A stretch of 64,000 nt of DNA, from NCBI GenBank assembly GCA_964478735.1, contig CAYZJB010000012.1:1269-65268 (forward strand), read 5' to 3'. The notes under the pieces were generated by a model that was given only the letters and a program-made list of their open reading frames with translations, was not told the DNA's origin and made no database searches. Each line of letters starts with the position of its first letter. Positions within the stretch are counted from its first letter, which is position 1. Below, piece by piece: positions 4,654 to 24,736 of the stretch. The DNA comes from an uncultured Bacteroidota bacterium (GTDB taxonomy: Bacteria > CLD3 > SB21). Both the position numbers and the translations under genes were made by a program.

Positions 4654-4754
4654 ATTGCCGCCTGCGGAATGATAACCGATGGCAGAGACGGGTCGTGAGA
4701 ACGATTAAAGATCGGAAATGTTGGGCGGGAAATCCATACCGGACTTGAGACGGT

Positions 4755-8713: not shown

Positions 8714-8716
8714 ATA

Positions 8717-8741: not shown

Positions 8742-9121
8742 CCCTCCATACATGCTGGGAAAACTCACCCACTAGAAATCCGGAAGCATGTAAATATCTA
8801 CGCAAAAAACGTAGATGTTGCGGATACAGAGTCTAAAAATCTTGCCGGAGTGGACGCTACCGCCCGTCATTTTCAAACGAGCCGGCCGGCTTTCGTTGTA
8901 CGCCAATTATCTGCACATGACATTATTCTCATCGGTCCTGTGTGCGCGAAATGGAGCGGAATGGAAGTTTCCAACCAACGTCGGCGCGCAGATCGACATT
9001 CGCCTCGTGGCCCTGTCGTATTTGAGATTTACCCTGTCGACCGGATATGCCGTCGCGTTTCGGAAGGGCCATAACGACGGGCAAGAATGGATGATGTCCC
9101 TTAAAATTCACTGATGACAAC

Positions 9122-10105
9122 ATGAATCTGCTGTTGAGCTTCTTTCCGGTCTGTTTGTTTCTCGCTGGCCTGATCGCCATGGACAGTTACAAACTGGTTC
9201 GCCGGGGAACTCTTGCAGCGGCGATATGCGCCGGAGCCATTGCCGCGGTGTCAGCATTGGTCATTCAGAGCCTGGGGTCGGCGGTCGTGAGTATGCCTCC
9301 GATGATCGCCGATCGCTACGTGGCGCCGGTTGTCGAAGAGGCGTTGAAGTCGGTGTATTTAGTCATCCTGATACGGCGAACCCGGATCGCTTTCACCGTC
9401 GACGCGGCGGTGGTGGGGTTTGCCGTCGGTACTGGATTCGCGCTCGTTGAAAACCTGTATTATCTCGAGAACATTTCCGACGGAAATTTTTTCCTTTGGC
9501 TCCTCCGGGGCGTCGGTACCGCCGTCATGCACGGATCGACGACCGCGATCTTTGCCATGCTTTACCGTACAACTCACGATGTTCAAACCCGTTTTGCATT
9601 TACGATAAGTATCGCGGGACCCGTAGCCGTTCATATGGCCTATAATCATTTTTTACTCGGGCCGACGGTCAATGCCATTATGATCCTCGCGGGATTTCCT
9701 TTACTGGTCATTGTGGCCTTCACGCGCTGCCGATCGCATATCGAACGCTGGCTCGGAATGGGATTTGACCGGGATGCGGAATTGCTGACGATGCTGGACA
9801 GCGGTCACATGAGCGACACGCCGATTGGCCGTTACCTGTCGTCCATTAAGAAGTATTTTCCATCGGAGATCGTGGTCGACATGGTTTGCCTCGTTCGCCT
9901 TCATGCCGAACTGTCGTTGCGCGCCAAGGGGATTTTGCTTATGCGAAGCGTCGGACTCCAACCGCCTTCGGATTACGATGTTCGGCCCAGGCTTGTCGAA
10001 ATGCGGTCGCTGACCAAGAATATCGGAAAGATCGGGCGACTGGCCCTGAGTCCCGTCCTGTCTCAGCGATATCGTGAAGTGTGGCAGCTTCGACTATTGG
10101 AATAA
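9122..10105 (+). CDS. prsW: PrsW-family intramembrane glutamic-type metalloprotease (anti-sigma-factor protease family).
   Basis: Polytopic membrane protein with the PrsW motifs: EE-x-x-K (VVEEALKS), F-x-x-x-E (FALVENLYY) and H-x-x-x-T (HGSTTAIFA). Confidence 0.75.
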   Translation: MNLLLSFFPVCLFLAGLIAMDSYKLVRRGTLAAAICAGAIAAVSALVIQSLGSAVVSMPPMIADRYVAPVVEEALKSVYLVILIRRTRIAFTVDAAVVGFAVGTGFALVENLYYLENISDGNFFLWLLRGVGTAVMHGSTTAIFAMLYRTTHDVQTRFAFTISIAGPVAVHMAYNHFLLGPTVNAIMILAGFPLLVIVAFTRCRSHIERWLGMGFDRDAELLTMLDSGHMSDTPIGRYLSSIKKYFPSEIVVDMVCLVRLHAELSLRAKGILLMRSVGLQPPSDYDVRPRLVEMRSLTKNIGKIGRLALSPVLSQRYREVWQLRLLE

Positions 10106-10187
10106 CCGACGCACGGCAAGATCGAATCAACTCGTTCGACCAGGGATAGTCTTTTCCATAGAGCTTATAGACAATAGCATAATTCTC

Positions 10188-10603
10188 TCACCACTCCGCC
10201 TTGGGCCGGCCTTTCCAGTACCAGGCGATGATGTCGGTCAGCGGGGGATCGCCGCCGATGTCGCGGAAACGCAGCGCGTTTTGAGCGCGATGGTAATGGC
10301 TGTGCATCGTCACCTGCGTGAGGGCTTCCGCGATGGTGATTTTGAGCGGAGGGTTTTTGAACCACGGGACCGTCACTTTGTACGAGAGCGTCGAATCGGT
10401 CGCGTTTTTCAAAAACACTTCGAGATTGGCGTGCTGTTCTTTCGCCCAGGATTTCAACCCCGCCGCGGTGCGGAAATCTTCCTGCTTTTTCCACGTGGGC
10501 GCTTTTTCGGAAACAACGCTACAAAAGGCATGTTGAACAAGGTGAATGTGGTGCAGGTGTTTCTGGATCGTCAGGTCGTTGAGCCCGCCGGGAAATTTTT
10601 CCA
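10188..10603 (-). pseudogene. Truncated duplicate of the 3' end of the DinB-family gene at 12398-12925. This is direct-repeat copy 1.
   Basis: Positions 10190-10603 match 12400-12813 with about two mismatches. An in-frame stop lies upstream of the duplicated part, so only the C-terminal 137 codons are present (...LEKFPGGLNDLTIQKHLHHIHLVQ...GRPKAEW). Confidence 0.7.
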
Positions 10604-10800
10604 GCAGCTCACGTGCGAGCAGAGATCAAGGTCATGAAAATCCGAATGACCTGATGGATGCGCTTAAGAATGGAAACTCAACAAGGCAGTCGCTTCGCGA
10701 TTAAGAAATTACAAACCTATATCGCTCCAACTATGATTATTTATTCATAATTGTCCAATTCAATCCCATAAAACATCCATAAAACATCCGTCCAAAAAAC

Positions 10801-10824
10801 CGTCCTGATACGTGTATCAGGACG
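10801..10824. promoter_or_regulatory. Perfect 11-bp inverted repeat CGTCCTGATAC-GT-GTATCAGGACG, about 55 bp upstream of the hydrolase start. It is a candidate operator.
   Basis: Seen directly. It sits in an AT-rich leader that also carries a tandem 11-mer repeat (CCATAAAACAT twice at about 10765-10790). Confidence 0.35.
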
Positions 10825-10878
10825 ACTTTCCCATTGGTTGGTTTATTTTTGGTAAACCAAGATTGGAAAGGAGTCCAT

Positions 10879-12042
10879 ATGATAAGAAACACTCTCTCAC
10901 GGATAGTTATTTTGGCCTGTGCCATTACCCTTGGTTGCGAAAACAGCCATCGCACGGAGAGTCGCGTCATCGCCGCAAAATTGGATGATCTGGCCGGTCA
11001 AATTCTGGCCGACTCGAGTATCCCAAGTGTGATTCTGAGGATTCACAGCCCAAAAACGGGTTTTACTTGGTCCCACGCACAAGGTCTCGCATACGGTAAA
11101 GTTCCAGCGCTGCCGGAGGATGCGTTTATGAGTGCAAGCATCGGCAAGATGATGACGGCCCTGCTTATTGTCAAACTGCAGGAGGCAGGACTCTTGGATG
11201 TGGACGATTCGTTGGGTATGTATCTTTCGAATGAAGTACTGTCGAATTTGCTTGTATACGAAGATCACGACTATAGTCGTCAGATTACAATCCGGCAACT
11301 GCTGACGCACACAAGCGGGCTCGACGATGTATTCGGCGGCGGAACGCCAGACGAAAATGGTCTTACGCCTCTTATGCAAGCGCTACTTGCAGAGCCGGAC
11401 CGCCAGTGGACTCCTCTGGATGTTATCCAGTTTTATAAGGACCATTTCCAGGCGCAAAGCGCACCGGGCGCACAGTTCCGTTACTCGGATACTGGGTATC
11501 AATTGCTCGGTTTGGTGGCGGAGAGCGCCAGTAATCAACCTTTTCACATGGCACTGTGGGAGCGCGTGCTCCAGCCGCTCGGCATGACGCATACGTATGT
11601 GATCGGCTATGATACTCCGCGCGGTTTGGTGGCTGGGCGACAACCGTCGACGGCGTACTTTGATGACATCGAACTCACGTTTCCCGCCGTGCGGTTTGAC
11701 TGGGCTGGCGGCGGTTTGTATACGACCACTCAAGATCTTGAAAATGCGCTCGACGCCATTCGACACGGAGCATTTTTGTCCGACTCGAGCCGTCAAGCCA
11801 TGCTGAATTGGGTCGATGACGGCGAAGGAGGGGGCTACGGTTTCGGTATCGCACGCTGGCGGTTCGGCGGGAGCCCGGATGCATATATGATAGGACACGG
11901 TGGCGCGACAAACGCATTTGTTTTTTATTCGGAGCGCCACGAAACCTATGTGATCGGCACCGTCAATCAAATCCGTCCCCACGAAATCGATATGGGAGTT
12001 GTCCTTTTGCGCATTCTGGAGATTCTTGAGGACGCGGAATGA
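10879..12042 (+). CDS. Beta-lactamase-related serine hydrolase (class C beta-lactamase / esterase superfamily). It may be secreted or a lipoprotein.
   Basis: An AAGGAG RBS lies 7 nt upstream of the ATG at 10879. The S-x-x-K nucleophile motif is SASIGK. The N-terminus is hydrophobic and ends near ...ACAITLGC. GC content looks lower than the flanking genes. Confidence 0.8.
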   Translation: MIRNTLSRIVILACAITLGCENSHRTESRVIAAKLDDLAGQILADSSIPSVILRIHSPKTGFTWSHAQGLAYGKVPALPEDAFMSASIGKMMTALLIVKLQEAGLLDVDDSLGMYLSNEVLSNLLVYEDHDYSRQITIRQLLTHTSGLDDVFGGGTPDENGLTPLMQALLAEPDRQWTPLDVIQFYKDHFQAQSAPGAQFRYSDTGYQLLGLVAESASNQPFHMALWERVLQPLGMTHTYVIGYDTPRGLVAGRQPSTAYFDDIELTFPAVRFDWAGGGLYTTTQDLENALDAIRHGAFLSDSSRQAMLNWVDDGEGGGYGFGIARWRFGGSPDAYMIGHGGATNAFVFYSERHETYVIGTVNQIRPHEIDMGVVLLRILEILEDAE

Positions 12043-12397
12043 GCCCAAAGGGGAAAACGCCTGAATTGAAATCGACGGATTTTTCTGATTCGACGCGTGC
12101 AGTGTATCTCCTGGCGGTATGGTAGTCGCTCTGGACACGATGCGCACGGGCCAGCGTGACGGATGCGATTTGGGAATCCACTACTCGGAATCGGAAGAGG
12201 TTGCGGGCGACCCATCGTTCGTTTACTCACGATCTCGATCAGAATAACATCGACATACTTGCGGCGACGAAAAAAAGCTCAAATGATAAGGCTCAGCCGG
12301 TCTTTCTTCCGGATTAGGTGGGTCAAGCTGCAATGGAGAGTTGATAAAGAGAGAGGCAGGTCACAACAGATGTTATCACGGTTTAGCGTGATGATAC

Positions 12398-12925
12398 CTA
12401 CCACTCCGCCTTGGGCCGGCCTTTCCAGTACCAGGCGATGATGTCGGTCAGCGGGGGATCGCCGCCGATGTCGCGGAAACGCAGCGCGTTTTGAGCGCGA
12501 TGGTAATGGCTGTGCATCGTCACCTGCGTGAGGGCTTCCGCGATGGTGATTTTGAGCGGAGGGTTTTTGAACCACGGGACCGTCACTTTGTACGAGAGCG
12601 TCGAATCGGTCGCGTTTTTCAAAAACACTTCGAGATTGGCGTGCTGTTCTTTCGCCCAGGATTTCAACCCCGCCGCGGTGCGGAAATCTTCCTGCTTTTT
12701 CCACGTGGGCGCTTTTTCGGAAACAACGCTACAAAAGGCATGTTGAACAAGGTGAATGTGGTGCAGGTGTTTCTGGATCGTCAGGTCGTTGAGTCCGCCG
12801 GGAAATTTCTCCAACGCTTTCCAGTGCTCGGCATCCGCCCACTCCATGTGACGGATCATGTCCCGCAGCCAGTGGCGAAGCGTGATGTGGATCAGTTCGC
12901 CTGTTTTGTCGACGGAGTCCGTCAT
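12398..12925 (-). CDS. DinB/YfiT-like (DinB_2) metal-binding four-helix-bundle protein.
   Basis: His-rich motifs HWLRDMIRHMEWADAEHW and TMHSHYHRAQ are present. The ATG at 12925 overlaps the TGA of the S46 peptidase gene (ATGA), which gives translational coupling. The ORF track lists a longer version running to 12985. Confidence 0.7.
   Translation of the reverse strand: MTDSVDKTGELIHITLRHWLRDMIRHMEWADAEHWKALEKFPGGLNDLTIQKHLHHIHLVQHAFCSVVSEKAPTWKKQEDFRTAAGLKSWAKEQHANLEVFLKNATDSTLSYKVTVPWFKNPPLKITIAEALTQVTMHSHYHRAQNALRFRDIGGDPPLTDIIAWYWKGRPKAEW
12400..12813. repeat. Direct-repeat copy 2 of 414 bp, lying inside the intact DinB-family gene. It pairs with 10190-10603.
   Basis: About 99.5% identity to copy 1. 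The intervening 1.8 kb carries the lower-GC hydrolase gene. Confidence 0.85.
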
Positions 12926-15033
12926 GCGGCGATTTTCATTTCTTTTATTAGATGATGCGCTCCACTGAAAAACTCCATCACCCACAGGATGTACCGAACG
13001 TCGACGCCGATCGAACGGCTGTACGCATCGCTCCAGGCGAAGTCGTTAACCGTGGCCTCGAAGGCACGATCGAAATTGAGTCCGACGAGCCGGCCGTACG
13101 CATCGATGACCGGACTGCCCGAATTGCCGCCCGTCGTATCCGAATCGTACAGCATGCCCACCGGTACGTCGTCGACGTTCTTGAGCCGATAGCGGCCGAA
13201 CGACTTGGACCGATAAAGCTCGATCATCTTTGACGGTGTGTCGAACGGCTTATCGCCCGTCTTGGCGATGAGACCCGACAACGTCGTCTGCGGCCGATAC
13301 ACGACCGCATCGGCGGGCGCATAGCCTCGCACTTTTCCGTAGGTGATTCGCATCGTAAAATTGGCGTCGGGTATGAAATCTTTTTTCAGAAATTGCTGGC
13401 GAACTTCCGCCAGCAGCGGATACAGCCGATTCAGTTCGGCATCCCATTGTTTTCGGTTGCCCTGAATCGATAAGCGCAGCGGTTGAAAAATCCGGACAAA
13501 TTTCATCATCGCGTCCTTGTCGGTCGCGATTTTATCCGGCTTCTGAAACGCGGTTCTTAAATAATTTTCGTCGCCCAGTTTTGAACTTTTATAAAGGCCG
13601 TCGACGAAGCGATCGAGCGATTTCGCATCGCCGGCGTCGAATAATCCGTCGACTTCTTTGATGCGCTGGTCCTCCGGCAGTGTCGACATGCGCAGCAGAA
13701 TTTCCCTGCACACGTCACGGTCCGCCGCAAGATTCGTTTTGTCTTCGATCGCCTGAATCCGTTTCATCACGGCCTCGATGACGCTGTCACGATCGGAGGC
13801 ATGGGATACGAGGGTAGCTCCGTCATACAGTTGCATTGCAATGCGAACGCGCCCGACCGATGAAAAAAGAAAATCCACGAGCGCGTCGCGTTCGACGCTC
13901 CGGGCCATGACGGTATAAATCGAATCCATCGTCGGAAGTACGTGGGCATATCGCGCCGTCCGGTTCGGATCCTTTGTGATAAATTCAGTCAGTTCTTTTT
14001 CCTGCGCACGTTTGCGATCGACGAACGATTCCGTCGTCAGCGTTTTGATCTGGCCCCTGTATTTTTTTTCGACGTTCGCCAGATACTCAATTCGTGCCGC
14101 GACCTGGATGGCAATCGCCCGATCGAGCGCGCCCGCGTCTTGAAGGCGCGCAATTTCCCACGCGTACAGACTGCCCACGGCGGCCATACGTTTCATTTCG
14201 AATTCGACGAACGACGCGCTGCGGTGGCGGAACGTCCTGCCGGGATACCCGAGGAGCATGACGAAGTCACCTTCATTCACGCCTTCGACGGCGAGCGGCA
14301 GGTGACGTTTGGGTTTATACGGGACGTTGTCCGGGGAATAATCGGCGGGAGAACCGTCCGGCGCCACGTACGCACGAAAAAATGCAAAGTCACCCGTATG
14401 CCGCGGCCACACCCAGTTGTCCACCTCGCCGCCGAATTGTCCAATCGCCTGCGGCGGTGCGTACACCAGCCGTACATCACGCAGCTGTGTGTAGACGAAC
14501 AAAAAATAGGATTGTCCGACCATCATTTCGGAGATTTCAATTTTCTGGCCGGGAAATTCCAATCTGGCTTTTTCCAATCGTGCGGCGCGGTTTTGCTCGA
14601 TCTTGCGCTGCCGTTCGAGCGAGGGCATATCGGTCGTGGTGCCATTGAGGATATCGGCGCTCACATCGACGACGTTTTCGAGGATCAACGCGTGGCCTTT
14701 TTTGACCGGAGATTCCGCTGAACGTGTTCCGGCAAGGAAACCGTTTTGAATGAAGTCGTTGTCGACCGTGGTGGCTTCCTGGATCGCGTCGAACGCACAG
14801 TGATAGTTGGTCAGGATCAGTCCTTCTTCGGAAACGAACGATCCCGTACAGCCGGGAATGCGGACGATCGCGTGCGCCAGGCTGACGCTGTCCGTACGGA
14901 AAATGTCGGCGGCATTCATCTTCAACCCTTTTTCTTCAAGCGCGATTTTTGCCGCCATCGTGATGGGAAACATGCCCTCGCCGGCGGTGAGCAAGGAGGA
15001 AAGGCACAAGAGAAGGGATAACAAACGTCGCAT
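12922..15033 (-). CDS. S46-family serine peptidase (dipeptidyl-peptidase 7/11-like), secreted.
   Basis: The signal peptide is MRRLLSLLLCLSSLLTA. The S46 catalytic-His motif is TNYHCAFD. The C-terminal GNSGSPV is the nucleophile region. The ORF track start at 15087 is an upstream TTG. Confidence 0.85.
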   Translation of the reverse strand: MRRLLSLLLCLSSLLTAGEGMFPITMAAKIALEEKGLKMNAADIFRTDSVSLAHAIVRIPGCTGSFVSEEGLILTNYHCAFDAIQEATTVDNDFIQNGFLAGTRSAESPVKKGHALILENVVDVSADILNGTTTDMPSLERQRKIEQNRAARLEKARLEFPGQKIEISEMMVGQSYFLFVYTQLRDVRLVYAPPQAIGQFGGEVDNWVWPRHTGDFAFFRAYVAPDGSPADYSPDNVPYKPKRHLPLAVEGVNEGDFVMLLGYPGRTFRHRSASFVEFEMKRMAAVGSLYAWEIARLQDAGALDRAIAIQVAARIEYLANVEKKYRGQIKTLTTESFVDRKRAQEKELTEFITKDPNRTARYAHVLPTMDSIYTVMARSVERDALVDFLFSSVGRVRIAMQLYDGATLVSHASDRDSVIEAVMKRIQAIEDKTNLAADRDVCREILLRMSTLPEDQRIKEVDGLFDAGDAKSLDRFVDGLYKSSKLGDENYLRTAFQKPDKIATDKDAMMKFVRIFQPLRLSIQGNRKQWDAELNRLYPLLAEVRQQFLKKDFIPDANFTMRITYGKVRGYAPADAVVYRPQTTLSGLIAKTGDKPFDTPSKMIELYRSKSFGRYRLKNVDDVPVGMLYDSDTTGGNSGSPVIDAYGRLVGLNFDRAFEATVNDFAWSDAYSRSIGVDVRYILWVMEFFSGAHHLIKEMKIAA

Positions 15034-15237
15034 GGAGCATCTCCGATTTGTGGGGGCGGGTTTACCGCAACCTGAATGGTCAGACAAATGTTCGTGCTTT
15101 CTTCAAGGAAATCAAGACGGAATCCGGGCAATAAGTTTGCCGTTGCACTCGCTGCTTTCGTGCCTTACCTTTGACCTATTAATCACGCGCTCCCTTCTTT
15201 TGCCTGACTCCCAGGCACGTGACAGTCGGACGGTCTC

Positions 15238-16525
15238 CATGGAACCTACTTTGCAAAGTCTCCAGGAGGAGAACCAACGCCTTCGCCGGGCCGTTGAGGA
15301 ATTGGCGATCCTGAACGAACTCGCCCGCGTGATCGGCGTTCAGACCAATTCCGAAGAAGTCATGCAAATCATCATCCGTCGCTCATTACGAGCCGTCAAA
15401 GGCGAACAAGGCGTCATTACCCTGATCGATCAGAACGAGCCGGGCACCATGAAGACGTTGGTTCGCACCACGGCGTCGTCATCCGACCACGCGCGGTTTC
15501 ACATTCACGAGAGCATGCTGGGGTGGATGCAACTGCACAAGAAGCCGCTGCTGCTTAACGATCCGGCCACCGACGACCGATTCCGTGGCGTGAACTGGGA
15601 CGGCGCCATCCGAAACGCACTGAGCGTTCCTCTTATGACGAAATCCGCGATGACCGGCATGTTGACGGTGTACAACAAAAGCGGCGGTGAAAAATTTGCC
15701 GACGACGATCAGCGGCTGCTGGCCATCATCGCGGCCCAGTCGGCACAGGTCATTGAAAATGCGCGGCTGTTTGAAAAGGAAAAGCAACTGCTCCAGATTC
15801 AGAGTGAGATGCGCCTGGCCGCGGAAATCCAGCTGGGTTTACTGCCCAAAACGGCGCCGGAAATTGCCGGCTATTCCATCGTCGGTACCAGCATTCCGGC
15901 ACAGTCCGTCGGCGGCGATTATTACGATTTTATCCGGATTGATGAACGCCGGCTCGCGTTGTGCCTCGGCGACGTCTCCGGTAAGGGCATGCCCGCGGCG
16001 TTGTTGATGGCCAATCTCCAGGCCACGTTGCGCGGTCAGACGATCGTGTCGGCTTCGGCGCGGGAATGTGTGTCTCGCGCCAATCGGCTCCTGGTCGAAA
16101 GCACGAGCAGCGACAAGTACGCGACCCTTTTTTATGGCATCCTCGATTTGTCGGAACATACCTTTCAATACACTAACGCCGCTCACAACCCGCCCGTGCA
16201 TTTACGGATCGACGGATCTTCGACCTTCCTGAAAAAAGGCGGGATCATGCTGGGCATGTTGACGGATATCGCATTCGAAACGGATACGGTGACGCTTGCG
16301 CCGGGTGACCTGCTGGTCATTTACTCCGACGGCATCACCGAGGCGTTCAATGCCGCGGACGAGGATTTTGGGGAAGAACGGTTGATGGAAATCCTGATCC
16401 GGCATCGGGAATCCCCGGTTGGCCGGCTGATGGAAGAGATTCTTTCCCAAGTTCGGGTTTTTATGGGCAACGCACCACAGTCAGACGACATGAGTCTGCT
16501 GATGGTCCGGCGGGACACGGTATAA
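15238..16525 (+). CDS. GAF-domain PP2C/SpoIIE-family protein phosphatase. It is the second paralog in the window.
   Basis: The ATG at about 15238 follows the in-frame junk in the track ORF. There is an N-terminal coiled coil (QSLQEENQRLRRAVEELAILNELA) and a GAF domain. PP2C motifs are GDYYDFIRI, LGDVSGKGMPAALLMA, NAAHNPP and YSDGITEAFN. Confidence 0.85.
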
Positions 16526-16564
16526 TCTGATGGCGGTTCCCGGAGTTCCACAAGGAGGTCCGCG

Positions 16565-17315
16565 ATGGTCATGAGTTTGGCCCAGGCTAAAATCACAGCG
16601 GATGTAATCCCGCGGATTAAGAGCGTGTACGCGGAGACTGTATTCCGCAGGCTCGAACGCGCGGACGGCTGTTTGTACGCGTGCCTGATTCGAAGCGTCA
16701 CGCACGAGGATCAATTCATGACCCTCAGCTTTTGGAAAACGCAGGACGACCTCAATGCCTTCACACAGTTCGGAATACGATGCCATGATGGACGAGTTGA
16801 ATGAAATTCTCGCCGAATCGACGGAATGGCAGATTCAGTTGACCGACGATTTGACGCTGCAGTATGCGCCCGTACCTGAAAAGCCGATGATCACGTCATA
16901 CAATGTGGCCACCGCCATGGACGGCGCCGTCGGATCGATCGTCGAACCCATGGTCGTCCGCGTCGTGTCGATGGAGATCGATCCCGGCCGAACGGAGGAA
17001 TTCAAACGTCTGTACCGGGAAAAAGTCATTGAGAAACTGAAAACCGTGAAAGGCTGTCTGGCCGCGTACCTCAGCGAAAATCATTTGATGCCCCATGCTT
17101 TCATTTCCGTGACGTTGTGGAACTGCCGGCAGGATGCGGATGCGTATGAACGTGGCGGAGTGTTTGCCGAACTCGTCGACGCCCTGAGGCCGACCTTTTC
17201 CGGACTGGCCAATCTGCAAATGCAAATGAACAAGTCCCGCAAAGCCGTGACGAGCGAAGACCTGCGCGTGGAGCGGTACGAGGTCGTATCCGGAAACAGC
17301 CTTTCCAAGTACTAA
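16565..17315 (+). CDS. Tandem ABM-domain (antibiotic-biosynthesis-monooxygenase-like) protein, apparently split by a +1 frameshift near 16775-16800.
   Basis: An AAGGAGG RBS lies before the ATG at 16565. The first ABM domain ends ...[13 protein letters not shown]. The second domain continues in the adjacent frame as [15 protein letters not shown]... The two track ORFs, 16565-16804 and 16755-17315, overlap by 50 nt. Confidence 0.55.
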
Positions 17316-17328
17316 CCGGGAATCCATA

Positions 17329-18435
17329 GTGAAAATTACACGAATTCGCGCCTATCGGGTGGAACTGCCGCTTCACGAAGGCAGCTATAAATGGTCGGGT
17401 GGAAAATCGGTTTCCGTTTTCGATTCCACGGTTGTCGAGATTACGACCGATGAAGGCATCACGGGATATGGCGAGGTATGCCCGTTGGGTCCGTTTTATC
17501 TGCCGTCGTACGCCGTCGGTGCGCGCGCGGGCATCGGGGAAATCGCGCCGCAGTTGCTCGGTGAGGATCCGACCCGGTTGACGCACATGAATCACCGCAT
17601 GGATGCGTTGCTCAAAGGACATCCATACGTAAAGTCGGCCATCGACATGGCGTGCTGGGATATTCTCGGCAAGGCGTCGGGCCGATCCGTCTGTACGCTG
17701 CTCGGAGGACGATGCGGAGACAAGGTCCAGTTGTATCGCGCGATCTCGCAGGAAACTCCGGATGCGATGGCGGCCAAAGTTGCCGGATATCGCAGGGAAG
17801 GGTATCGGAAATTTCAACTTAAAGTCGGCGGTGATCCAGATACGGACATCGAACGCATACGCGCGATTGCCGCGTTAATGGAAACGGGTGATGTGCTCAT
17901 CGCGGACGCCAATACGGGCTGGTTGATGCACCAGGCCGCACGCGTCGTTCGCGCCGTTGCGGACGTGGACGTCTATATCGAGCAGCCGTGTCTCTCGTAT
18001 GAGGAGTGCCTCACGATCCGGCGACGGACGAACCATCCGTTTATCCTTGACGAATGTTTGGACACCGTCCCGATGCTTTTGCGGGCACACGCCGATCACG
18101 CCATGGACGTGATCAATATCAAAATCAGCAAGTTCGGGGGATTGACCAAGGCGCGGGTCGTTCGCGATCTCTGCGTCGAGATGGGGATCGCCATGACGAT
18201 CGAAGACAGTTGGGGCGGCGATATCACCACGGCGGCCATCGCCCACCTCGCCCACAGCACGCCCGAGGCTTTTCGTTTCTCGGCCACCGATTTTAACAGT
18301 TACGTCACCGTGAAAATCGCCGACGGTGCGCCGAGCCGCGAACACGGCTGGATGAAGGCATCGGAGCATCCGGGACTAGGCATCCGGCCCATCGCCGCCG
18401 TGCTGGGCGATCCGGTGATCGACGTGGGCGTTTGA
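17329..18435 (+). CDS. Enolase-superfamily enzyme of the mandelate racemase / muconate lactonizing enzyme family.
   Basis: 368 aa. The N-terminal capping domain and C-terminal barrel carry the metal-ligand pattern ...IADAN..., ...EQP... and ...LDEC... The MR/MLE N-terminus reads [15 protein letters not shown]. Confidence 0.8.
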
Positions 18436-18496
18436 ATTACCGTTGCAAATCTCAAGAACGACAAAGGACCATTCAAAATTATTCAAGGAGAAGATC

Positions 18497-20140
18497 GTGA
18501 AAAGGGATCAAAGGGTTGATCGGGTCATGAAAACGCTGATGCTGACGGCGCTGTTGAGCGTTCCTTCCTCTGCGGGAATGCCGAATACAGGAGTGTATGA
18601 CGATCTGGTCACTCTTCTGCGCGAGGTGAGGCAGTTGGAACGCACGGAGACCCGCGATGGCGTTCCCGATTATACGGCGTCGACGATGTCCTCCGTTCAA
18701 CGAAAGCTGATGGCTTTGCGCGAGCGTCTGCATACGATCGACACGACCGGATGGACACTCGAACAAAAGATCGATCGTGAAATCGTCAGGGCGGAAATCA
18801 ACGGCTTCGATTTTTTTATTCGGATACTCAAGCCGTGGGAACGCGATCCCGCGTTTTATGTCCTGATTTTTGCGAACCAAAGCGACACGCCCGAACACGA
18901 GGGTCCCGTCAGCCACGCGATGATCGATTTGTGGAAGTATTCTTATCCATTGTCGAAAAGCGACGCGCAAAAGCTGACCGCACAGCTAAGAATCATTCCA
19001 CCGTTATTGGATCAGGCACGGCAAAACCTTACCGGCAATGCGAAGGACCTGTGGATGGGGGGAATTCAAAGCGCTCGTGAGCAGGTCCAGGATCTGGATG
19101 ATCTTATTAAAAGAATCGAAAAGCCGGACAAAAATCTGAAAGATGCGTTACAAAAAGCGAGGATCGCGACGATCATGTTCGCCGAGTGGCTTGAGCAGGT
19201 GGCCACACAAAAAAACGGTCCGTCGGGCATCGGCAAAGAAAATTATACCTGGTTTTTACGCAACGTCTTGCTGGTGCCGATGACGTGGGAAGAAGAGTTG
19301 ACGTTGCTGAGACGTGAACTCGACCGGGCGTATGCAATGCTTACGCTGGAACGACAGCATAACCGGAATCTACCTCCGCTGAATCCGGCATCCGAAACGG
19401 CGGAATTCGAAAGGCGGACAAACGCCGCGGTCAATAAAATGATGGCGTTTTTCACCGATCGCAAAGTCTATCCCGTTCGTCCCTATATGGAGCCGGAACT
19501 GCGCAAACATCTCGGACGGTTTCAGCTGGCAGACCAACGGAATTTTTTTTCGAACGTGCTCCATCACGAGCCGGCCGTGTTGTATTCGCATCTGATCCAC
19601 TGGTTTGAAATTGCCGCGCTCCGTGAAGAACCGCATTCGAGCCCGGTGCGCCGCGATCCGCTGCCGTTCAACATCTGGGTCAGCCGCTCGGAAGGGATGG
19701 CGACCGCCGTGGAGGAAATTTTCATGCACGCCGGATTGTACGACGACAACGCCCGCGCGCGGGAACTGGTCTGGATCATGCTGGCGCAGCGCTGTGCCCG
19801 CGGGATCGCCTCCCTGTATGCCCACGCCAACGAGATGTCGATGATCGAAGCTCAGGATTTTCAGATCGAGGGGACGCCGAAAGAATGGCGAGGCGTGCGG
19901 GGCCTGGTGATCGGTGAGCAACATTTGTATCTCCGTTTACCGGGCTACGGAACCAGTTACGTCACGGGAAAGTATCTGATCGACCGATTGATCAAAGATC
20001 GCAGCCGGCAGTTGGGTGATTCTTTTATCCTGTCCGATTTTTTTAACGAGGTCAACATGGCCGGTATGATCCCCGTTACGTTGATCCGGTGGCAATTGAC
20101 GGGTCGGGACGATGAGATGAAGAGTATTGTCAAACCGTAG
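18497..20140 (+). CDS. DUF885-family protein, secreted or a lipoprotein, of unknown function and possibly peptidase-like.
   Basis: An AAGGAG RBS lies 6 nt before the GTG at about 18497. The signal peptide is ...MKTLMLTALLSVPSSAG. Length and sequence character are typical of DUF885. The track start at 18443 is an upstream TTG. Confidence 0.6.
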   Translation: MKRDQRVDRVMKTLMLTALLSVPSSAGMPNTGVYDDLVTLLREVRQLERTETRDGVPDYTASTMSSVQRKLMALRERLHTIDTTGWTLEQKIDREIVRAEINGFDFFIRILKPWERDPAFYVLIFANQSDTPEHEGPVSHAMIDLWKYSYPLSKSDAQKLTAQLRIIPPLLDQARQNLTGNAKDLWMGGIQSAREQVQDLDDLIKRIEKPDKNLKDALQKARIATIMFAEWLEQVATQKNGPSGIGKENYTWFLRNVLLVPMTWEEELTLLRRELDRAYAMLTLERQHNRNLPPLNPASETAEFERRTNAAVNKMMAFFTDRKVYPVRPYMEPELRKHLGRFQLADQRNFFSNVLHHEPAVLYSHLIHWFEIAALREEPHSSPVRRDPLPFNIWVSRSEGMATAVEEIFMHAGLYDDNARARELVWIMLAQRCARGIASLYAHANEMSMIEAQDFQIEGTPKEWRGVRGLVIGEQHLYLRLPGYGTSYVTGKYLIDRLIKDRSRQLGDSFILSDFFNEVNMAGMIPVTLIRWQLTGRDDEMKSIVKP

Positions 20141-20179
20141 CCGCAAGCTTCAGCTTGCGAATGAAGAGGCCAATCGGAC

Positions 20180-20578
20180 ATGATCATACGTGAAAAAAAA
20201 CATCGGCTGCCGCAAATCGCATACGAAGGATTCGTCATCGTTTCATTTACGATATGTGTGAAAAACAGGTATCCCTTGTTCAACGAACGCGAGACGACCA
20301 GTGTTTTCGCTGACATTCTGTTGACGGAAGCCGGTCGGTTTGAATCTCTCGTCATCATTTACCTCTTCATGCCCGACCATCTCCATTTGGTTCTGCAGGG
20401 AAACTCGGATACGGCTCGGCCTTTGAAAGCGGTCAACGGCTTCAAGCAAAAAACAGGTTATTGGCTATCAAAGCATCGCGTCAATGCGGCCTGGCAGAAA
20501 GGTTTTTACGATCGGATTCTAAGAGACGAAAGCGACCTCGTGACGTGCGTTGATTACATCCTAAATAGTTCTCACTGA
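20180..20578 (+). CDS. REP-associated tyrosine transposase (RayT) / IS200-like HUH (Y1) transposase, probably C-terminally shortened.
   Basis: The HuH motif is in LFMPDHLHLVLQ. The catalytic-Tyr region is WQKGFYDRILRDE...DYILN. The protein ends right after DYILNSSH, where RayT proteins normally continue as YI-x-NP... Confidence 0.75.
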   Translation: MIIREKKHRLPQIAYEGFVIVSFTICVKNRYPLFNERETTSVFADILLTEAGRFESLVIIYLFMPDHLHLVLQGNSDTARPLKAVNGFKQKTGYWLSKHRVNAAWQKGFYDRILRDESDLVTCVDYILNSSH

Positions 20579-21327
20579 GCTTTGCCCTGGCCTATGCGGC
20601 GTTGGCCGAGGCCTGTGCCAACATGTATCTATGGTATGACGGCGACCCCCAGTGGTTGGGCAAAACGATCGAAATGAATCAAAAGGCTCTCAGGGTTCAA
20701 CCCGACCTGCAGGAAGCGCAATTCGGCATCGCCATGGTGTATCTGTATCAAAAGCGTTTTGCTGAAGCGAAAAAAACACTGGAACGCATCATACAGAAGA
20801 TGCCCGATTCGTACGACGCCGTTCGGTGGATGGGAATTATCTCCGACATCATTGGCAATTACGATGCTGCCGTCGAGTATTATCAACAGGCCGCGAAAAT
20901 AAAGCCCTACAGTGAAGAGCCGTGGATGCATCTCGACATGACCTTTCGCCGCATGGGCAATGAAGAAGCGTCGAACGAAGCGGCGAAAAAGATAATTGAA
21001 ATCGGCGCGAGAAAATACGCGGTGAATCCCAACGATGTGCTCACCCTCAGCCGAATGGCCATTCCGTATGCCCGTTTCGGCGACAGGGACAAAGCCCTGG
21101 CAGCCATTCAGCGCGTGTTGGAGATTGCCCCGGAGGACGGCCTTGCGTTGTACAACTGCGCGTGCACGTACACGGGGTTGAGTCAAAGGAACGAAGCCTT
21201 GACCATCCTGCGAAGATCACTCGAAATCGGCGGCAATGTTGTTCGCGAATGGGTCAAGACCGACCCCTATTTTGATTCGCTACGCGGGGAAACGGATTTT
21301 GAAACGCTACTTGCAGAATTTGCGTGA
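20567..21327 (+). pseudogene. C-terminal TPR fragment of a paralogous Ser/Thr-kinase-TPR gene. The 5' part was replaced by the RayT insertion.
   Basis: The frame opens immediately after the RayT stop, mid TPR repeat (FSLSFALAYAALAEACANMYLW...), with no plausible start. The C-terminal end ...WVKTDPYFDSLRGETDFETLLAEFA parallels the end of the downstream kinase (...WLKIDPTWEPLRNHKRFQKLIAQAD). Confidence 0.6.
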
Positions 21328-21351
21328 AAGCGATAACCCGGTGAGGATGAG

Positions 21352-21475
21352 ATGATTGGTACTACAATTTCCCACTGCAACATTCTCGAAAAACTCGGCG
21401 AACCAACCCCACCCCTGCCCCTCCCCTTGCTAAGGGGAGGGCGAGGGAGGGGTTGCGGGAGGCGTCGCCTATGAT
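21352..21475 (+). other. 40-codon upstream ORF. Its first 17 codons duplicate the kinase N-terminus, read through the GC-rich palindrome, and end in a TGA that overlaps the kinase ATG (ATGA).
   Basis: The uORF starts MIGTTISHCNILEKLGE and the kinase starts MIGQAISHYKILEKLGE. Of the 17 codons, 11 differ only at synonymous positions and 4 are non-synonymous. The uORF continues PTPPLPLPLLRGGRGRGCGRRRL and then stops. Confidence 0.3.
21404..21456. repeat. GC-rich imperfect palindrome (REP-like element): CCCCACCCCTGCCCCTCCCC-TTGCTAA-GGGGAGGGCGAGGGAGGGGTTG.
   Basis: Inverted repeat with stems of about 20 nt. The left arm recurs at 8717-8741. It lies about 0.8 kb from the RayT gene. Confidence 0.5.
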
Positions 21476-24107
21476 CGGACAAGCCATCTCGCATTATAAA
21501 ATCCTTGAGAAGCTCGGAGAGGGCGGGATGGGCGTGGTGTACAAGGCCCAGGACACCAAACTCGATCGCGTCGTCGCGCTGAAATTCCTGCCCCATTTTT
21601 TGACATCCAGCGAGACGGAGCGTGCACGGTTCCTCCAGGAAGCCAAAGCGGCCTCGGCGCTCAATCATCCGAATGTCTGTACGATCTACGGCATCGAGGA
21701 ACACGGCGGACAACCGTTCATCGAAATGGAACTGGTCGAGGGCGTGACACTCAAGCATAAATTTTCCGAATCGCCATTGAAGATCCAGGATGCGATCGGC
21801 TATGCCGTTCAGATCGGCGAAGCGCTTCAGGAAGCGCATACGAAAGGCATCGTCCACCGCGATGTGAAGTCCGAGAACATCATGGTCAATTCCAAAAACC
21901 AGATCAAGGTGATGGATTTTGGTCTCGCGAAACTTCGAGGTTCGGCGAAGCTGACTCAATCTTCAAGTACGACGGGAACGCTGGCATACATGGCGCCAGA
22001 GCAAATTCAGGGCGCAGATGTGGACGCACGAGCGGATATTTTTTCATTCGGCGTCGTGCTGTACGAAATGTTGGCCGGCCAGACACCGTTTCGCGGCGAG
22101 CATGAGGCCGCGATGATGTATTCGATCGTGAATGAAGAGCCCCAGCCGATTCAAAAATTCCGCGACGGCGTGTCCTCGGAACTCCTTCACATCTTGAATC
22201 GCGCGCTGGAAAAGGATCCTGAAGACCGTTATCAGACGGTCAAAGACATGACGATCGATCTGCGCCGCCTGAAAAAAGATTCGACACGAGTCGTTCGGCT
22301 CCCGGAAATTCAAGCATCAGGCGGATCCGTCCCGCGATTGTACATCATCAAGAACCTGCCGGTGAAATATGCCGTCGGACTGGGAATAACGATCGTGGTA
22401 CTCACGGCGTTTCTTTTCAGAGATAAGTTGTTTCCCGGTCTGAGCCGGACGCCCGACAAGAAAATGATCGTTGTGTTGCCATTTGAAAATCTCGGACCGA
22501 ACGACAAGGACTATTTCGTCGACGGGATGACGGATGAAGTTACCAGCCGTTTGTCGGGCCTCTCGGAACTGGGCGTGATAGCCCGTTCGAGCGCGTCGCA
22601 GTACCGGCAAACCACGAAATCGTTCAGGCAAATCGGCGAGGAATTGGGCGTGCAGTTTATCCTGCAGAGCACGGTACGGTGGGAAACCATCGACGGAGTA
22701 ACGCACGTGCGCGTCAATCCCTCGTTGATCAACGTCGACGACGGTACGCAAAAATGGTCGCAGTCCATGGAGTCTGTCATGTCCGGCGCGTTCAAACTGC
22801 AGTCGGACATCGCGACGCGCGTGGCGTCGGCTCTTGACGTCGTCCTGTTGAAATCGGAAAGGCAAAATTTGGAAACGACGTTGACCAAAAACGCGGAAGC
22901 CTACGACTATTATCTGCAGGCCATCCGCTACGGGAGAAGCGATGCGATTGCCGATATGACGATCGGGATCCAGCTTCTGGAACGTGCCATCGCCATCGAT
23001 CCAAACTTCGCCGCTGCGTATGCGAAGTTGTCGTATCTCCATTCCAACCTGTACTGGTTCTATTATGACCGTTCCGAAGCTCGCGTCGAACGTTCCCGCA
23101 TCGCGGCTGAAAAAGCCGTGGAGATCGCTCCGGGACTGTCGGAATCCCACGAAGCGATGGGGTGGTACTATTATCATGGGAAACTGGATTACCCGCGCGC
23201 ACTCGAACACTTCGATCTCGCCCTGAAGTATCGCCCGAGCAATTCGGAAATTCATTACGGCATTGCCGCGGTGCTGCGACGGATGGGCGACATGCAACGA
23301 TCGGTGGAATCCTTCCAGCGAGCCGTCGTCGGAAATCCACGCGAAGCGATCATCATACGTCAGATGGCCGAGACGATGGGTCTCCAGCGCGACTATGAAG
23401 AGGCGACGCTCCAATTCGATCGGGCGCTGCACCTCACACCGGACGACCGCGACATTTACCTGAACAAAATCGAAACCCTTTTGCAATGGAAGGGCGATAT
23501 CGAAGGCGCCCGTCGTATTCTCGACGATGCGCGTCGATTTGGAAAAACGGGAATCGACAGCGAGCGACTCCATTTTATCAGCTATTATATCTCGTTGATG
23601 GAAAAGGATTTTGAAGCCGCCGGACAGGCGCTGGGTCGGATGAAGACGTCCGGGTTTGGTGACCAATTCCAATACTATCCGAGACCATTGCTTCACGCCC
23701 ATCTGGAACGGCAGCGAGGGAATCCTACCATGGCCCACGCCTATTATGATAGCGCGAGAGTACTCCTGGAGAAGGACCGAAACGACCGCCCGAACGACGA
23801 ACGCGTACATAGCGCTCTGGGCATTGCGTACGCCGGATTGGGCCGGACCGACGATGCCGTGCGATCCGGTTTGAAGGGCGTCGAATGGCTTCCCGTCGAG
23901 AAGGAAGCCTGGCGGGGATCGTACCGGTTGATCGACATGGCCAATATTTACACGATGACCGGAAACGCGGACAAGGCGATCGACATACTGGAACGTTTGC
24001 TCGTTATTCCGGCGCCGATGTCGGTTCCATGGCTCAAAATCGATCCGACGTGGGAACCGCTTCGGAACCACAAGCGATTTCAAAAACTCATAGCTCAGGC
24101 GGATTGA
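21471..24107 (+). CDS. Transmembrane Ser/Thr protein kinase with a periplasmic TolB-N-like domain and C-terminal TPR repeats.
   Basis: Kinase motifs are GEGGMGVVYKA, VALKFL, HRDVKSENIMV, DFGLAK and GTLAYMAPE. The TM segment is VGLGITIVVLTAFLF. The motif MIVVLPFENLGPNDKDYFVDGMTDEVTSRLS is TolB-like. TPR repeats run to the end. The ORF track start at 21453 is an upstream TTG. Confidence 0.9.
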   Translation: MIGQAISHYKILEKLGEGGMGVVYKAQDTKLDRVVALKFLPHFLTSSETERARFLQEAKAASALNHPNVCTIYGIEEHGGQPFIEMELVEGVTLKHKFSESPLKIQDAIGYAVQIGEALQEAHTKGIVHRDVKSENIMVNSKNQIKVMDFGLAKLRGSAKLTQSSSTTGTLAYMAPEQIQGADVDARADIFSFGVVLYEMLAGQTPFRGEHEAAMMYSIVNEEPQPIQKFRDGVSSELLHILNRALEKDPEDRYQTVKDMTIDLRRLKKDSTRVVRLPEIQASGGSVPRLYIIKNLPVKYAVGLGITIVVLTAFLFRDKLFPGLSRTPDKKMIVVLPFENLGPNDKDYFVDGMTDEVTSRLSGLSELGVIARSSASQYRQTTKSFRQIGEELGVQFILQSTVRWETIDGVTHVRVNPSLINVDDGTQKWSQSMESVMSGAFKLQSDIATRVASALDVVLLKSERQNLETTLTKNAEAYDYYLQAIRYGRSDAIADMTIGIQLLERAIAIDPNFAAAYAKLSYLHSNLYWFYYDRSEARVERSRIAAEKAVEIAPGLSESHEAMGWYYYHGKLDYPRALEHFDLALKYRPSNSEIHYGIAAVLRRMGDMQRSVESFQRAVVGNPREAIIIRQMAETMGLQRDYEEATLQFDRALHLTPDDRDIYLNKIETLLQWKGDIEGARRILDDARRFGKTGIDSERLHFISYYISLMEKDFEAAGQALGRMKTSGFGDQFQYYPRPLLHAHLERQRGNPTMAHAYYDSARVLLEKDRNDRPNDERVHSALGIAYAGLGRTDDAVRSGLKGVEWLPVEKEAWRGSYRLIDMANIYTMTGNADKAIDILERLLVIPAPMSVPWLKIDPTWEPLRNHKRFQKLIAQAD

Positions 24108-24180
24108 CACGAGATTGACCGGTATTCGTCGACATAGTAGTCCAGACATTTCATCCATTTTGTATGCCCACCCGACGTTG

Positions 24181-24597
24181 TCAATTATATCTCCGACAGG
24201 ATAGACTTTCCCATCGATGCCGAAGGCATCGAACGAAATTAGACAAAAGAATCAGCAGTCCACACGCTGGACAGATTGCTTTCACCGAACCTGACGTGGC
24301 CGAATTTTTTCGGTCCCGGAGTAGCCACGCCTCGAAGCGTTTGGAGCAGACCAAATTGGTTCGTTGCCAAATGACCATCAATGCCTCCACAAGCTCCGTG
24401 TCCTTATACTGAGACTTGCGTCCCGGTTTTTTCCCCGCCGAATGCACACCTTCGCGATGAAGCAACCGAATCGCACTCTTACCATGCAGGCCTATAACCT
24501 TTACAAAGACGGCCGCCAAATACCGCCTGCGAACGGCCTCGACATACTCCAGTTTCGCTTTCGTGCTCACAATACGTGCTCCTTTCCTTGGTAACAC
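24181..24597 (-). pseudogene. N-terminal about 95 aa of an ISAzo13-like (ISNCY group) DDE transposase. The rest is deleted, leaving an IS stump.
   Basis: The sequence KAKLEYVEAVRRRYLAAVFVKVIGLHGKSAIRLLH...GKKPGRKSQYKDTELVEALMVIWQRTNLVCSKR matches the conserved N-terminal HTH region of ISAzo13-family transposases. The reading frame then degenerates. Confidence 0.55.
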
Positions 24598-24736
24598 ATA
24601 TTATGACGCAACGACCCAATTTCAGCCCTCGGTAACAATAATAATTAGGAGTCAATTCGAGACCGCATCCAAACGGGTTTTCCGGTTGACTCGCCGGGTT
24701 TTTTTTAATAGCTTGCGGCCTCGTTATGGTAACGCA

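What the first reader, a model, noticed from the sequence alone, without database searches (positions are those of the whole stretch)
20180..21327. RayT/IS200-like HUH transposase replaced the 5' part of a paralogous Ser/Thr-kinase-TPR gene
The 132-aa ORF has the HuH motif (DHLHLVLQ) and the RayT-type catalytic-Tyr region (WQKGFYDRILRDE...DYILN). It stops where RayT proteins normally continue, so it is C-terminally shortened.

Immediately after its stop, the same frame opens mid-TPR-repeat with no start codon. It runs 250 codons to an end (...WVKTDPYFDSLRGETDFETLLAEFA) that parallels the C-terminus of the full kinase-TPR gene downstream (...WLKIDPTWEPLRNHKRFQKLIAQAD). The simplest reading is that the insertion truncated a tandem paralog.
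Basis: partly seen in the sequence, partly recalled or inferred. Interest (0 to 1): 0.55.

Follow-up and report, generated by a model that had tools for sequence, protein, structure and literature searches.

The report
Recent deletion fused two gene remnants
A recent deletion of about 4.8 kb joined the front of a RayT-type transposase gene to the tail of a sensor-kinase gene, so this is ordinary gene decay and not a transposase inserting into the kinase gene.

Summary
Both truncated ORFs are real. ORF 20180-20578 is a RayT-like Y1/HUH transposase cut after codon 129 of 163. The frame from 20569 to 21327 holds the last ~248 codons of a 703-aa Ser/Thr-kinase/TolB-like/TPR gene.

The proposed mechanism is wrong. 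Two close relatives (L003, L017) have the same neighbourhood. There an intact 163-aa RayT follows DUF885 and precedes three intact kinase genes.

The window lacks 4.79-4.87 kb found in both relatives. The missing stretch holds the RayT 3' end with its downstream hairpin, a whole kinase/beta-propeller gene, one or two small ORFs, and the first 455 codons of the 703-aa kinase-TPR gene. A 9-13 nt filler of unknown origin sits at the junction.

The two ORFs are in different frames, not the same frame.

The junction is identical in two independent per-run assemblies. Both of its sides are over 99% identical to L017, so the deletion is very recent and the open TPR frame says nothing about function.

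The C-terminal likeness to the downstream kinase reflects a shared generic domain (TPR_END_plus, NF047558).

The gene is RayT-like rather than IS200-like: in the relatives it is bracketed by inverted GTAG-hairpins. No further copies of that hairpin occur in 64 kb.

Low interest.

The parts
18497..20140 (+). DUF885 gene (547 aa). It is the conserved left anchor of the locus.
   Evidence: Pfam PF05960. Gene call on identical Logan contigs. Syntenic in L003, L017 and L014.
20137..20159 (+). Left REP-like hairpin upstream of RayT: GTAG, then C, then a 7-bp stem CGCAAGC / GCTTGCG with loop TTCA. It overlaps the DUF885 stop codon. Its inverted partner downstream of RayT was lost in the deletion.
   Evidence: The pattern CGCANNCTTCAGNNTGCG occurs once in the 64-kb window (0.01 expected). 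In L003 and L004 it occurs exactly twice, on opposite strands, bracketing RayT. Folds; L017 partner sequence.
20180..20578 (+). Truncated RayT-like Y1/HUH transposase ORF (132 aa). Codons 1-129 (20180-20566) are orthologous; the junction supplies SSH and a stop.
   Evidence: The window-L003 DNA alignment on this side runs to 20567.
20568..20580 (.). Deletion junction with 9-13 nt of filler (GTTCTCACTGAGC) and no identifiable source. It replaces L003 10389-15258 (4,870 nt), or L017 2484-7270 (4,787 nt).
   Evidence: blastn breakpoints. Junction alignments. Filler not found elsewhere in L003 or the window. Identical junction in L007-L010.
20569..21327 (+). 3' remnant (252 codons plus stop) of a 703-aa Ser/Thr-kinase/TolB-like/TPR gene. 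Homology to codons 456-703 starts at 20577-20581. An internal ATG at 20623 gives the 234-aa product that gene callers report.
21145..21312 (+). TPR end-of-group domain (NF047558) inside the remnant.
   Evidence: remnant residues 193-248, 83.6 bits against a cut-off of 32. The downstream kinase C-terminus scores 42.1 bits.
21352..21474 (+). 40-codon ORF whose first 17 codons (21352-21402) copy a kinase N-terminus (MIGTTISHCNILEKLGE). Its TGA stop overlaps the real kinase ATG in the sequence ATGA.
21408..21452 (.). 45-nt G/C-rich palindrome in the kinase leader. It is present in the window and L017 and absent from L003, where 54 nt are missing.
   Evidence: (-27.3 kcal/mol for the 76-nt stretch 21395-21470 that contains it, z = -4.8).
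21471..24107 (+). Intact 878-aa Ser/Thr-kinase/TPR gene, third in the array in the relatives. The deletion did not touch it.

Best explanation
The region is the scar of one recent deletion of about 4.8 kb in a strain-variable locus.

The ancestral order, still present in two close relatives, is DUF885, REP-like hairpin, RayT (163 aa), inverted REP-like hairpin, kinase/PD40-propeller (875 aa), one or two small ORFs, kinase/TolB-like/TPR (703 aa), kinase/TPR (878 aa).

In the window's lineage an illegitimate (non-homologous) join with 9-13 nt of filler connected RayT codon 129 to about codon 456 of the 703-aa kinase gene.

What remains:
- A RayT stump. It keeps the HUH motif and the catalytic Tyr. 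It lacks the residue aligned with metal ligand N119, the rest of helix alpha-D and the whole C-terminal tail, so it is probably inactive.
- An out-of-frame, promoter-less TPR tail, which is probably a young pseudogene.

Shown: the synteny, the breakpoints, the reproducibility of the junction and its recency.
Inferred: the mechanism of joining, that the window's ancestor carried the same genes in the gap, and that both remnants are non-functional.
For: 1. Synteny. Window 10705-20567 matches L003 528-10388; window 20581-21397 matches L003 15259-16076; window 21471-24109 matches L003 16096-18734. L003 has intact RayT and three intact kinase genes. L017, from a different sample and strain, has the same intact order and gives the same left breakpoint.
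2. Polarity. Four strain variants of RayT are 163 aa and only the window's is 132 aa. Full-length homologues of the TPR piece carry kinase and TolB-like parts upstream.
3. Not an assembly artefact. Per-run Logan assemblies of SRR10095373 and SRR10095374 contain the junction, 99.95-100% identical to the window.
4. Recency. Against L017 the RayT block differs at 3 of 461 nt and the TPR remnant at 6 of 747 nt. Only 2 of these changes are unique to the window, one synonymous and one D606N. The flanking genes differ by 4-11%.
5. No other RayT or kinase copy in the 64-kb window.
6. Loss of function is plausible. The break falls between N129 and N130; N130 aligns with the metal ligand N119 of TnpA_REP.
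Against: - The 9-13 nt filler has no identified source, so the joining mechanism is not established.
- I could not check whether the missing genes lie elsewhere in this genome, which would make this a translocation rather than a loss.
- The Logan assemblies may come from the same samples as the window's own assembly. They confirm the junction but not that it is fixed in the population.
- The TPR frame is still open, and dN/dS against L003 is 0.07. That would also fit a functional gene, although the recency of the deletion makes this uninformative.
Confidence: 0.9

Rival explanations
1. One reading: a RayT/IS200-like element transposed into a tandem kinase-TPR paralogue and displaced its 5' part.
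For: The two remnants abut with no kinase 5' part upstream. The transposase belongs to a family whose relatives are mobile.
Against: - RayT occupies the same site, intact, next to intact kinases in L003, L004 and L017.
- The transposase gene is itself truncated at the junction, and its downstream hairpin is missing.
- A whole extra gene is missing between the two remnants.
- A more distant relative has neither RayT nor kinases after DUF885, so RayT and the array go together.
Confidence: 0.03
2. The junction is an assembly chimera between strain variants or tandem paralogues.
For: The locus is a tandem array of paralogous kinases with repeated 5' segments, and the strains are mosaic.
Against: - Two separate per-run assemblies give the identical junction.
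- The breakpoints lie in unique sequence with no shared repeat.
- A filler is present, which k-mer mis-joins do not create.
Confidence: 0.03
3. The deletion is real, but one or both remnants work. Either a 234-aa stand-alone TPR protein is translated from ATG 20623 on the RayT transcript, or the tail-less RayT stump is an uninhibited nuclease.
For: - The TPR frame is open, with an ATG and a GAGG 12 nt upstream. Gene callers call it.
- A separate 260-aa TPR-only ORF of the same family lies next to an unrelated gene in L012.
- Removing the C-terminal tail of E. coli TnpA_REP increases cleavage (PMC3479197).
Against: - The ATG and the GAGG pre-exist inside the intact gene, so they are not evolved start signals.
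- The remnant starts inside a TPR helix pair.
- There has been too little time since the deletion for its intactness to mean anything.
- The RayT cut removes far more than the Delta152 construct did, including the N119-equivalent ligand.
Confidence: 0.1
4. The junction arose during uptake of DNA from a related strain (homology-facilitated illegitimate recombination), with one homologous crossover in the DUF885 3' end and one illegitimate join.
For: Against L003, a near-identical block starts abruptly around 20081-20107 and ends exactly at the junction. A filler is present at the join.
Against: Against L017, the near-identical block runs across the junction on both sides, from about 19880 to 21327. 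A plain deletion inside an L017-like haplotype therefore explains the pattern without any import.
Confidence: 0.05

Closest known systems
REP-associated tyrosine transposase RayT / TnpA_REP (E. coli YafM, PDB 4ER8; RAYT family of Nunvar 2010 and Bertels 2017)
   Same: - Y1 HUH fold.
- HUH motif, catalytic Tyr and the (D)YIxxNP helix all align.
- It is the best NCBIfam model (NF047646).
- It has sequence beyond the IS200 core.
- One copy in the 64-kb window.
- In the relatives the gene is bracketed by two related hairpins in inverted orientation, each preceded by GTAG, as E. coli REPs are (PMC3479197).
   Different: - Only distantly related: E = 2e-4 to 4ER8.
- The intact orthologue scores 79.7 bits against a cut-off of 80.
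- No further copies of the hairpin in 64 kb, so REP amplification is not shown.
- The window copy is truncated and has lost its right-hand hairpin.
IS200/IS605 TnpA (IS608, ISDra2)
   Same: Same Pfam family, PF01797. A small single-ORF unit with hairpins at both ends.
   Different: - NF033573 scores 21.5-22.2 bits against a cut-off of 55.
- The hairpins are inverted, not on the same strand.
- No second copy in the window and no tnpB.
- The position is stable across strains.
Hanks-type Ser/Thr kinases with TolB-like and TPR sensor modules, ending in a TPR_END_plus domain (NF047558)
   Same: The remnant is colinear with the last 248 residues of such a protein, 96% identical in amino acids to the L003 orthologue and 6 of 747 nt different from L017. 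It carries the end-of-group domain.
   Different: The kinase, the linker and the TolB-like part are missing. What is left is one module without its own start.
Pseudogene formation by illegitimate deletion in tandem paralogue arrays
   Same: Two genes cut at one junction, a short filler, no repeat at the breakpoints, polymorphic among close strains.
   Different: Nothing unusual. The only notable point is that a domesticated-transposase gene is one of the casualties.

Membership tests
RAYT / TnpA_REP | Y1 HUH transposase domain (PF01797) | tested here: met
   37.1 bits against a cut-off of 23, profile positions 9-118 of 121.
RAYT / TnpA_REP | HUH motif and catalytic Tyr aligned with H59/H61 and Y115 of 4ER8 | tested here: met
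   H67/H69 and Y126 align. Residue roles are from PMC3479197.
RAYT / TnpA_REP | Score at or above the curated cut-off of NF047646 (REP_Tyr_transpos) | tested here: inconclusive
   The intact orthologue P0035 scores 79.7 against 80. The window's truncated copy scores 54.2 against 80.
RAYT / TnpA_REP | Complete alpha-D helix with the N119-equivalent metal ligand, and the C-terminal extension | tested here: not met
   The window copy ends at N129 plus SSH. N130, the NPVRAGLV segment and the 30-aa tail are deleted. They are present in the relatives. An equivalent of E161 was not established.
RAYT / TnpA_REP | Gene flanked by REP hairpins in inverted orientation with a 5' GTAG | tested here: met
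   L003 9963-9980 (+) and 10483-10500 (-). In L017 both have the form GTAG-C-7 nt-TTCA-7 nt, the downstream one with one mismatch in its stem. The window keeps only the left one, 20137-20159.
RAYT / TnpA_REP | The flanking REP is over-represented genome-wide | not testable with these tools
   Only 64 kb plus about 20 kb are available. There are no additional copies in them, which leans against this feature but is not decisive.
RAYT / TnpA_REP | Single copy per genome, vertically stable position | tested here: inconclusive
   One copy in the window. Same position in four strains. The whole genome was not available.
IS200/IS605 insertion sequence | TnpA reaching the NF033573 cut-off | tested here: not met
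   21.5-22.2 bits against 55.
IS200/IS605 insertion sequence | Subterminal hairpins on the same strand at both ends, and multiple copies | tested here: not met
   The hairpins lie on opposite strands. There is no second copy in the window.
Ser/Thr kinase / TolB-like / TPR sensor proteins | Kinase domain present | tested here: not met
   The remnant has only TPR hits. The kinase domain of the parent gene lies inside the deleted stretch.
Ser/Thr kinase / TolB-like / TPR sensor proteins | C-terminal TPR array ending in TPR_END_plus, colinear with full-length members | tested here: met
   96% amino-acid identity to L003 codons 456-703 and 6 of 747 nt different from L017.

The most novel reading that the evidence does not exclude
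The RayT-REP unit sits at the edge of a hyper-plastic array of sensor kinases. Its single-strand nuclease activity might seed the rearrangements seen there: the 4.8-kb deletion, the repeated kinase 5' stubs that all break at the same G-rich codons, and the palindrome and leader indels. That would make it a domesticated transposase that diversifies a signalling-gene array. A related possibility is that the deletion created a RayT-promoter-driven stand-alone TPR end-module that modulates the remaining kinase.
Probability: 0.04. Interest if true: 0.55.

Novelty: new member of a known kind. Interest (0 to 1): 0.15.

Why it matters
Mostly as a correction. Automatic annotation will call a 132-aa 'transposase' and a 234-aa 'TPR protein' here, and one could read a transposon insertion into the pair. 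Both are remnants of a single very recent deletion. The locus also gives a clean, dated example of strain-level gene loss in a sensor-kinase array of an uncultured bacterium whose nearest named relatives are annotated as Bacteroidota. It adds a RayT-like gene with a GTAG-hairpin pair from a lineage far from the enterobacterial and pseudomonad RayTs whose REPs and REPINs are best characterised.

Tried and rejected
- Source of the 13-nt filler: none within 2 mismatches in L003, and no second copy within 1 mismatch in the window. There is only a weak resemblance to the sequence just upstream of the right breakpoint: by my own reading of the sequences, 8 of 13 with an 8-nt gap in L003 and 5 of 7 in L017. 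I left the breakpoint as 20577-20581.\n- More copies of the RayT-flanking hairpin, the downstream stem, or the kinase-leader hairpins in the window: none beyond the single sites.\n- Rfam, whole window at gathering threshold and both local regions at E <= 1: nothing except chance miRNA-hairpin matches to the palindrome.\n- Scans of genome contigs and metagenome contigs with DUF885 returned only distant loci, L005 at 69% and L006 at 65%. The useful relatives came from exact-protein look-ups instead.\n- 'Stand-alone TPR proteins exist in relatives': P0001 and P0002 start 21-58 nt from a contig end, and for P0002 the frame is open to that end. P0003 is a full gene with one in-frame stop. P0014 is another remnant. 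P0020 is TolB-like plus TPR without a kinase. P0004, P0008, P0013 and P0019 were not checked.\n- Relaxed selection on the remnant: the amino-acid differences from L003, polarised by outgroups, show no excess on the window branch. Only 2 unique substitutions exist against L017, so the test has no power.\n- Homology-facilitated illegitimate recombination looked attractive from the L003 comparison alone, but became unnecessary once L017 showed near-identity on both sides of the junction.\n- RayT-catalysed deletion: there is no hairpin or REP-like sequence at either breakpoint, and the enzyme's own gene is cut.

Full report
**What is in the sequence**

ORF 20180-20578 encodes 132 aa and matches Pfam Y1_Tnp at 37.1 bits, cut-off 23, profile positions 9-118 of 121. 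A second reading frame opens at 20569, directly after a TAG at 20566-20568, and runs 252 codons to the stop at 21325-21327. The second frame gives only TPR-family hits. It contains a TTG at 20602 and an ATG at 20623.

**The transposase remnant**

- A database search returned 116 homologues. Most of those that are not obviously partial are about 155-166 aa. The best hit, P0035, is 163 aa and 98% identical.
- Its 90%-identity cluster has four 163-aa variants plus the window's 132-aa form.
- Against solved structures, the intact orthologue aligns with E. coli TnpA_REP (4ER8, E = 2e-4). H67/H69 align with H59/H61, Y126 with Y115 and N130 with N119.
- In that structure Y115 is the catalytic tyrosine and N119 a metal ligand on helix alpha-D. 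The last ~25 residues are an auto-inhibitory tail, and removing them after G152 raises cleavage activity (PMC3479197).
- The window copy stops being homologous after N129 and ends SSH-stop. It keeps HUH and Tyr but loses the ligand, the rest of alpha-D and the tail. That is a much deeper cut than the activating Delta152 construct. I infer that it is probably inactive; this was not tested.

**The TPR remnant**

- Its homologues are the C-terminal modules of larger proteins. P0027 carries part of a kinase domain, a TolB-like domain and part of the TPR module. P0007 and P0020 carry TolB-like plus TPR.
- The checked short 'stand-alone' hits do not hold up. P0001 and P0002 begin 21-58 nt from a contig end, and for P0002 the frame is open to that end. 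P0003 is a full kinase/TolB-like/TPR gene with a single in-frame stop. P0014 is another 5'-truncated remnant next to an unrelated hydrolase-like gene.
- The resemblance of its C-terminus to that of the downstream 878-aa kinase is 27% identity over 146 aa. It is explained by a shared NF047558 TPR_END_plus domain, 83.6 and 42.1 bits against a cut-off of 32.

**The decisive comparison**

An exact-sequence look-up of P0035 retrieved L003, part of a 59-kb JGI metagenome contig, with the same neighbourhood. Its gene order is ABM, MR_MLE, DUF885, RayT (163 aa), kinase/PD40 (875 aa), two small ORFs, kinase/TolB-like/TPR (703 aa), kinase/TPR (878 aa).

blastn aligns the two sequences as follows:

| Window | L003 | Identity |
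|---|---|---|
| 10705-20567 | 528-10388 | 91% |
| 20581-21397 | 15259-16076 | 94% |
| 21471-24109 | 16096-18734 | 95% |

The window therefore lacks L003 10389-15258, which is 4,870 nt. The missing stretch holds RayT codons 130-163, the hairpin after RayT, one complete kinase/beta-propeller gene, two small ORFs, and codons 1-455 of the 703-aa gene.

A third strain, L017 (JGI 3300037479), has the same intact order, though with a single 115-aa ORF between the first two kinase genes. It gives the same left breakpoint and a right breakpoint 4 nt further left, for 4,787 nt missing.

At the join, the window carries 9-13 nt (GTTCTCACTGAGC) that match nothing nearby. No repeat or hairpin lies at either breakpoint.

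**Direction and reality of the event**

The truncated state is derived. Four other strain variants keep the 163-aa RayT, and both truncated ORFs correspond to widely conserved full-length proteins. The junction is not an assembly artefact. Per-run Logan assemblies of SRR10095373 and SRR10095374 contain it and are 99.95-100% identical to the window over 8.3-11.7 kb. A more distant relative (DUF885 84% identical) has DUF2259 and a large secreted protein after DUF885, with no RayT or kinase. The next relative, at 69%, also has no RayT or kinase there. RayT and the kinase array therefore belong together in a variable segment. RayT did not land in a pre-existing kinase gene.

**Age**

- Against L003, RayT codons 1-129 differ at 2 nt (dS 0.012), while the flanking genes have dS 0.15-0.42. 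The remnant shows dS 0.24 and dN/dS 0.07.
- The block 20107-20567 is the least diverged 460-nt stretch in 13.4 kb: 2 mismatches against a median of 33.
- Against L017, both sides of the junction are nearly identical: 3 of 461 nt in the RayT block and 6 of 747 nt in the remnant. Only two of these changes are unique to the window, V608 synonymous and D606N.
- The near-identical block runs from about 19880 to 21327.
- The deletion therefore happened very recently, in an L017-like haplotype. The open TPR frame and the low dN/dS reflect history before the deletion and say nothing about present function.
- This also removes the need for the import-plus-illegitimate-join idea that the L003 comparison alone had suggested.

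**RayT or IS200?**

- The intact orthologue scores 79.7 bits on NF047646 (REP-associated tyrosine transposase, cut-off 80) and 21.5 bits on NF033573 (IS200, cut-off 55).
- In L003 and L004 the pattern CGCANNCTTCAGNNTGCG occurs exactly twice, on opposite strands, bracketing the gene.
- Each of the two copies is preceded by GTAG. In L017 both have the form GTAG-C-7 nt stem-TTCA-7 nt stem, the downstream one with one mismatch in its stem.
- Inverted flanking hairpins with a 5' GTAG are the RayT/REP arrangement (PMC3479197). REPs or REPINs are almost always found flanking RAYT genes (PMC5581495). IS200/IS605 ends instead carry same-strand hairpins.
- The window keeps only the left hairpin, 20137-20159. 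It is the only match in 64 kb, with 0.01 expected by chance.
- I found no further copies, so REP amplification is not shown. Bertels et al. report that only two of the five RAYT groups are clearly REP-rich (PMC5581495).

**Verdict**

It is wrong on the frame. The interpretation that an insertion truncated a paralogue is not supported. One recent deletion cut both genes and removed a third. This is ordinary strain-level gene decay, and the RayT is a new member of a known family. Interest is low.

**Caveats**

- The joining mechanism is inferred.
- Loss versus relocation of the missing genes could not be checked outside the 64 kb.
- Non-function of the remnants is an inference.

Noticed in passing
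window 21352-21402; L003 10554-10604, 16031-16078, 19007-19055; L002 ~196-250; L017 ~8045-8095: About 50-nt 'stubs' copy the first 16-17 codons of the Ser/Thr kinases (MIGTTISH.NILEKLGE) and lie just upstream of, or after, the real kinase genes. All of them lose homology at the same point, right before the G-rich P-loop codons GGCGGGATGGGCGT. The window and L017 stubs differ at about 10 positions in 25 nt (20 over 21328-21377), although their flanks are nearly identical. This may be a recurrent breakage or gene-conversion hotspot; it is unexplained.
   Followed up: partly
window 21471-21474; L003 16094-16099: The stub ORF upstream of the third kinase ends with a TGA that overlaps the kinase ATG (ATGA) in both the window and L003. 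This holds even though the sequence between stub and start differs by a 54-nt indel, a multiple of three. It could be a translationally coupled uORF or a coincidence.
   Followed up: partly
window 21408-21452: A 45-nt G/C-rich near-perfect palindrome lies in the kinase leader. The 76-nt stretch containing it folds at -27.3 kcal/mol as ssDNA, z = -4.8. It is identical in L017 and absent from L003. Its right arm resembles the kinase P-loop codons. There is no Rfam family and no other copy in 64 kb.
   Followed up: partly
L003 10660-10758, 18895-19006, 19065-19168; window 24215-24231: A leader element of about 110 nt has two hairpins (CGATGCCgaaGGCATCG and TCGACTCCaacGGAGTCGA) separated by ATAGAAAAATAGAAG. 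It precedes gene starts three times in L003. The window keeps only the first hairpin, just after the kinase gene. There is no Rfam match.
   Followed up: partly
window 20107-20567; L003 ~9902-10750; L017 ~2000-2850: The end of DUF885, RayT and the whole spacer up to the first kinase start are 5-10 times less diverged among the three strains than the flanking genes: 0.4-1.1% against 4-11%, with dS 0.012 against 0.15-0.42. This suggests a recent sweep or exchange of the block. The block's edges do not coincide with the REP-like hairpins.
   Followed up: partly
L002 329-760 (GCA_037932185.1); L011 1320-1322; L012 627-1409: Other members of this kinase/TolB-like/TPR family are also damaged. One is an internal deletion fusing 73 aa of kinase to the last 70 aa of the TPR end (P0028). 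One carries an in-frame stop at a conserved Gln. One is a 5'-truncated TPR tail beside an unrelated gene. The family seems prone to decay.
   Followed up: partly
window 17307-18595 versus L017 369-511: L017 appears to lack the MR_MLE (enolase-superfamily) gene that lies between ABM and DUF885 in the window and L003. This would be another strain-specific indel at this locus.
   Followed up: no
window 10181-10605 and 12400-12820: Two stretches of about 420 nt each align at 93-94% to the same DinB-family genes of L003 and carry an identical internal inverted repeat at 10347-10422 and 12557-12632. They are apparently duplicated DinB-family genes.
   Followed up: no
window 24109-24600: Synteny with L003 ends right after the kinase stop, and with L017 at about 24257. 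A 138-aa ORF on the minus strand (24181-24597) has no Pfam hit. This is a further rearrangement boundary.
   Followed up: no
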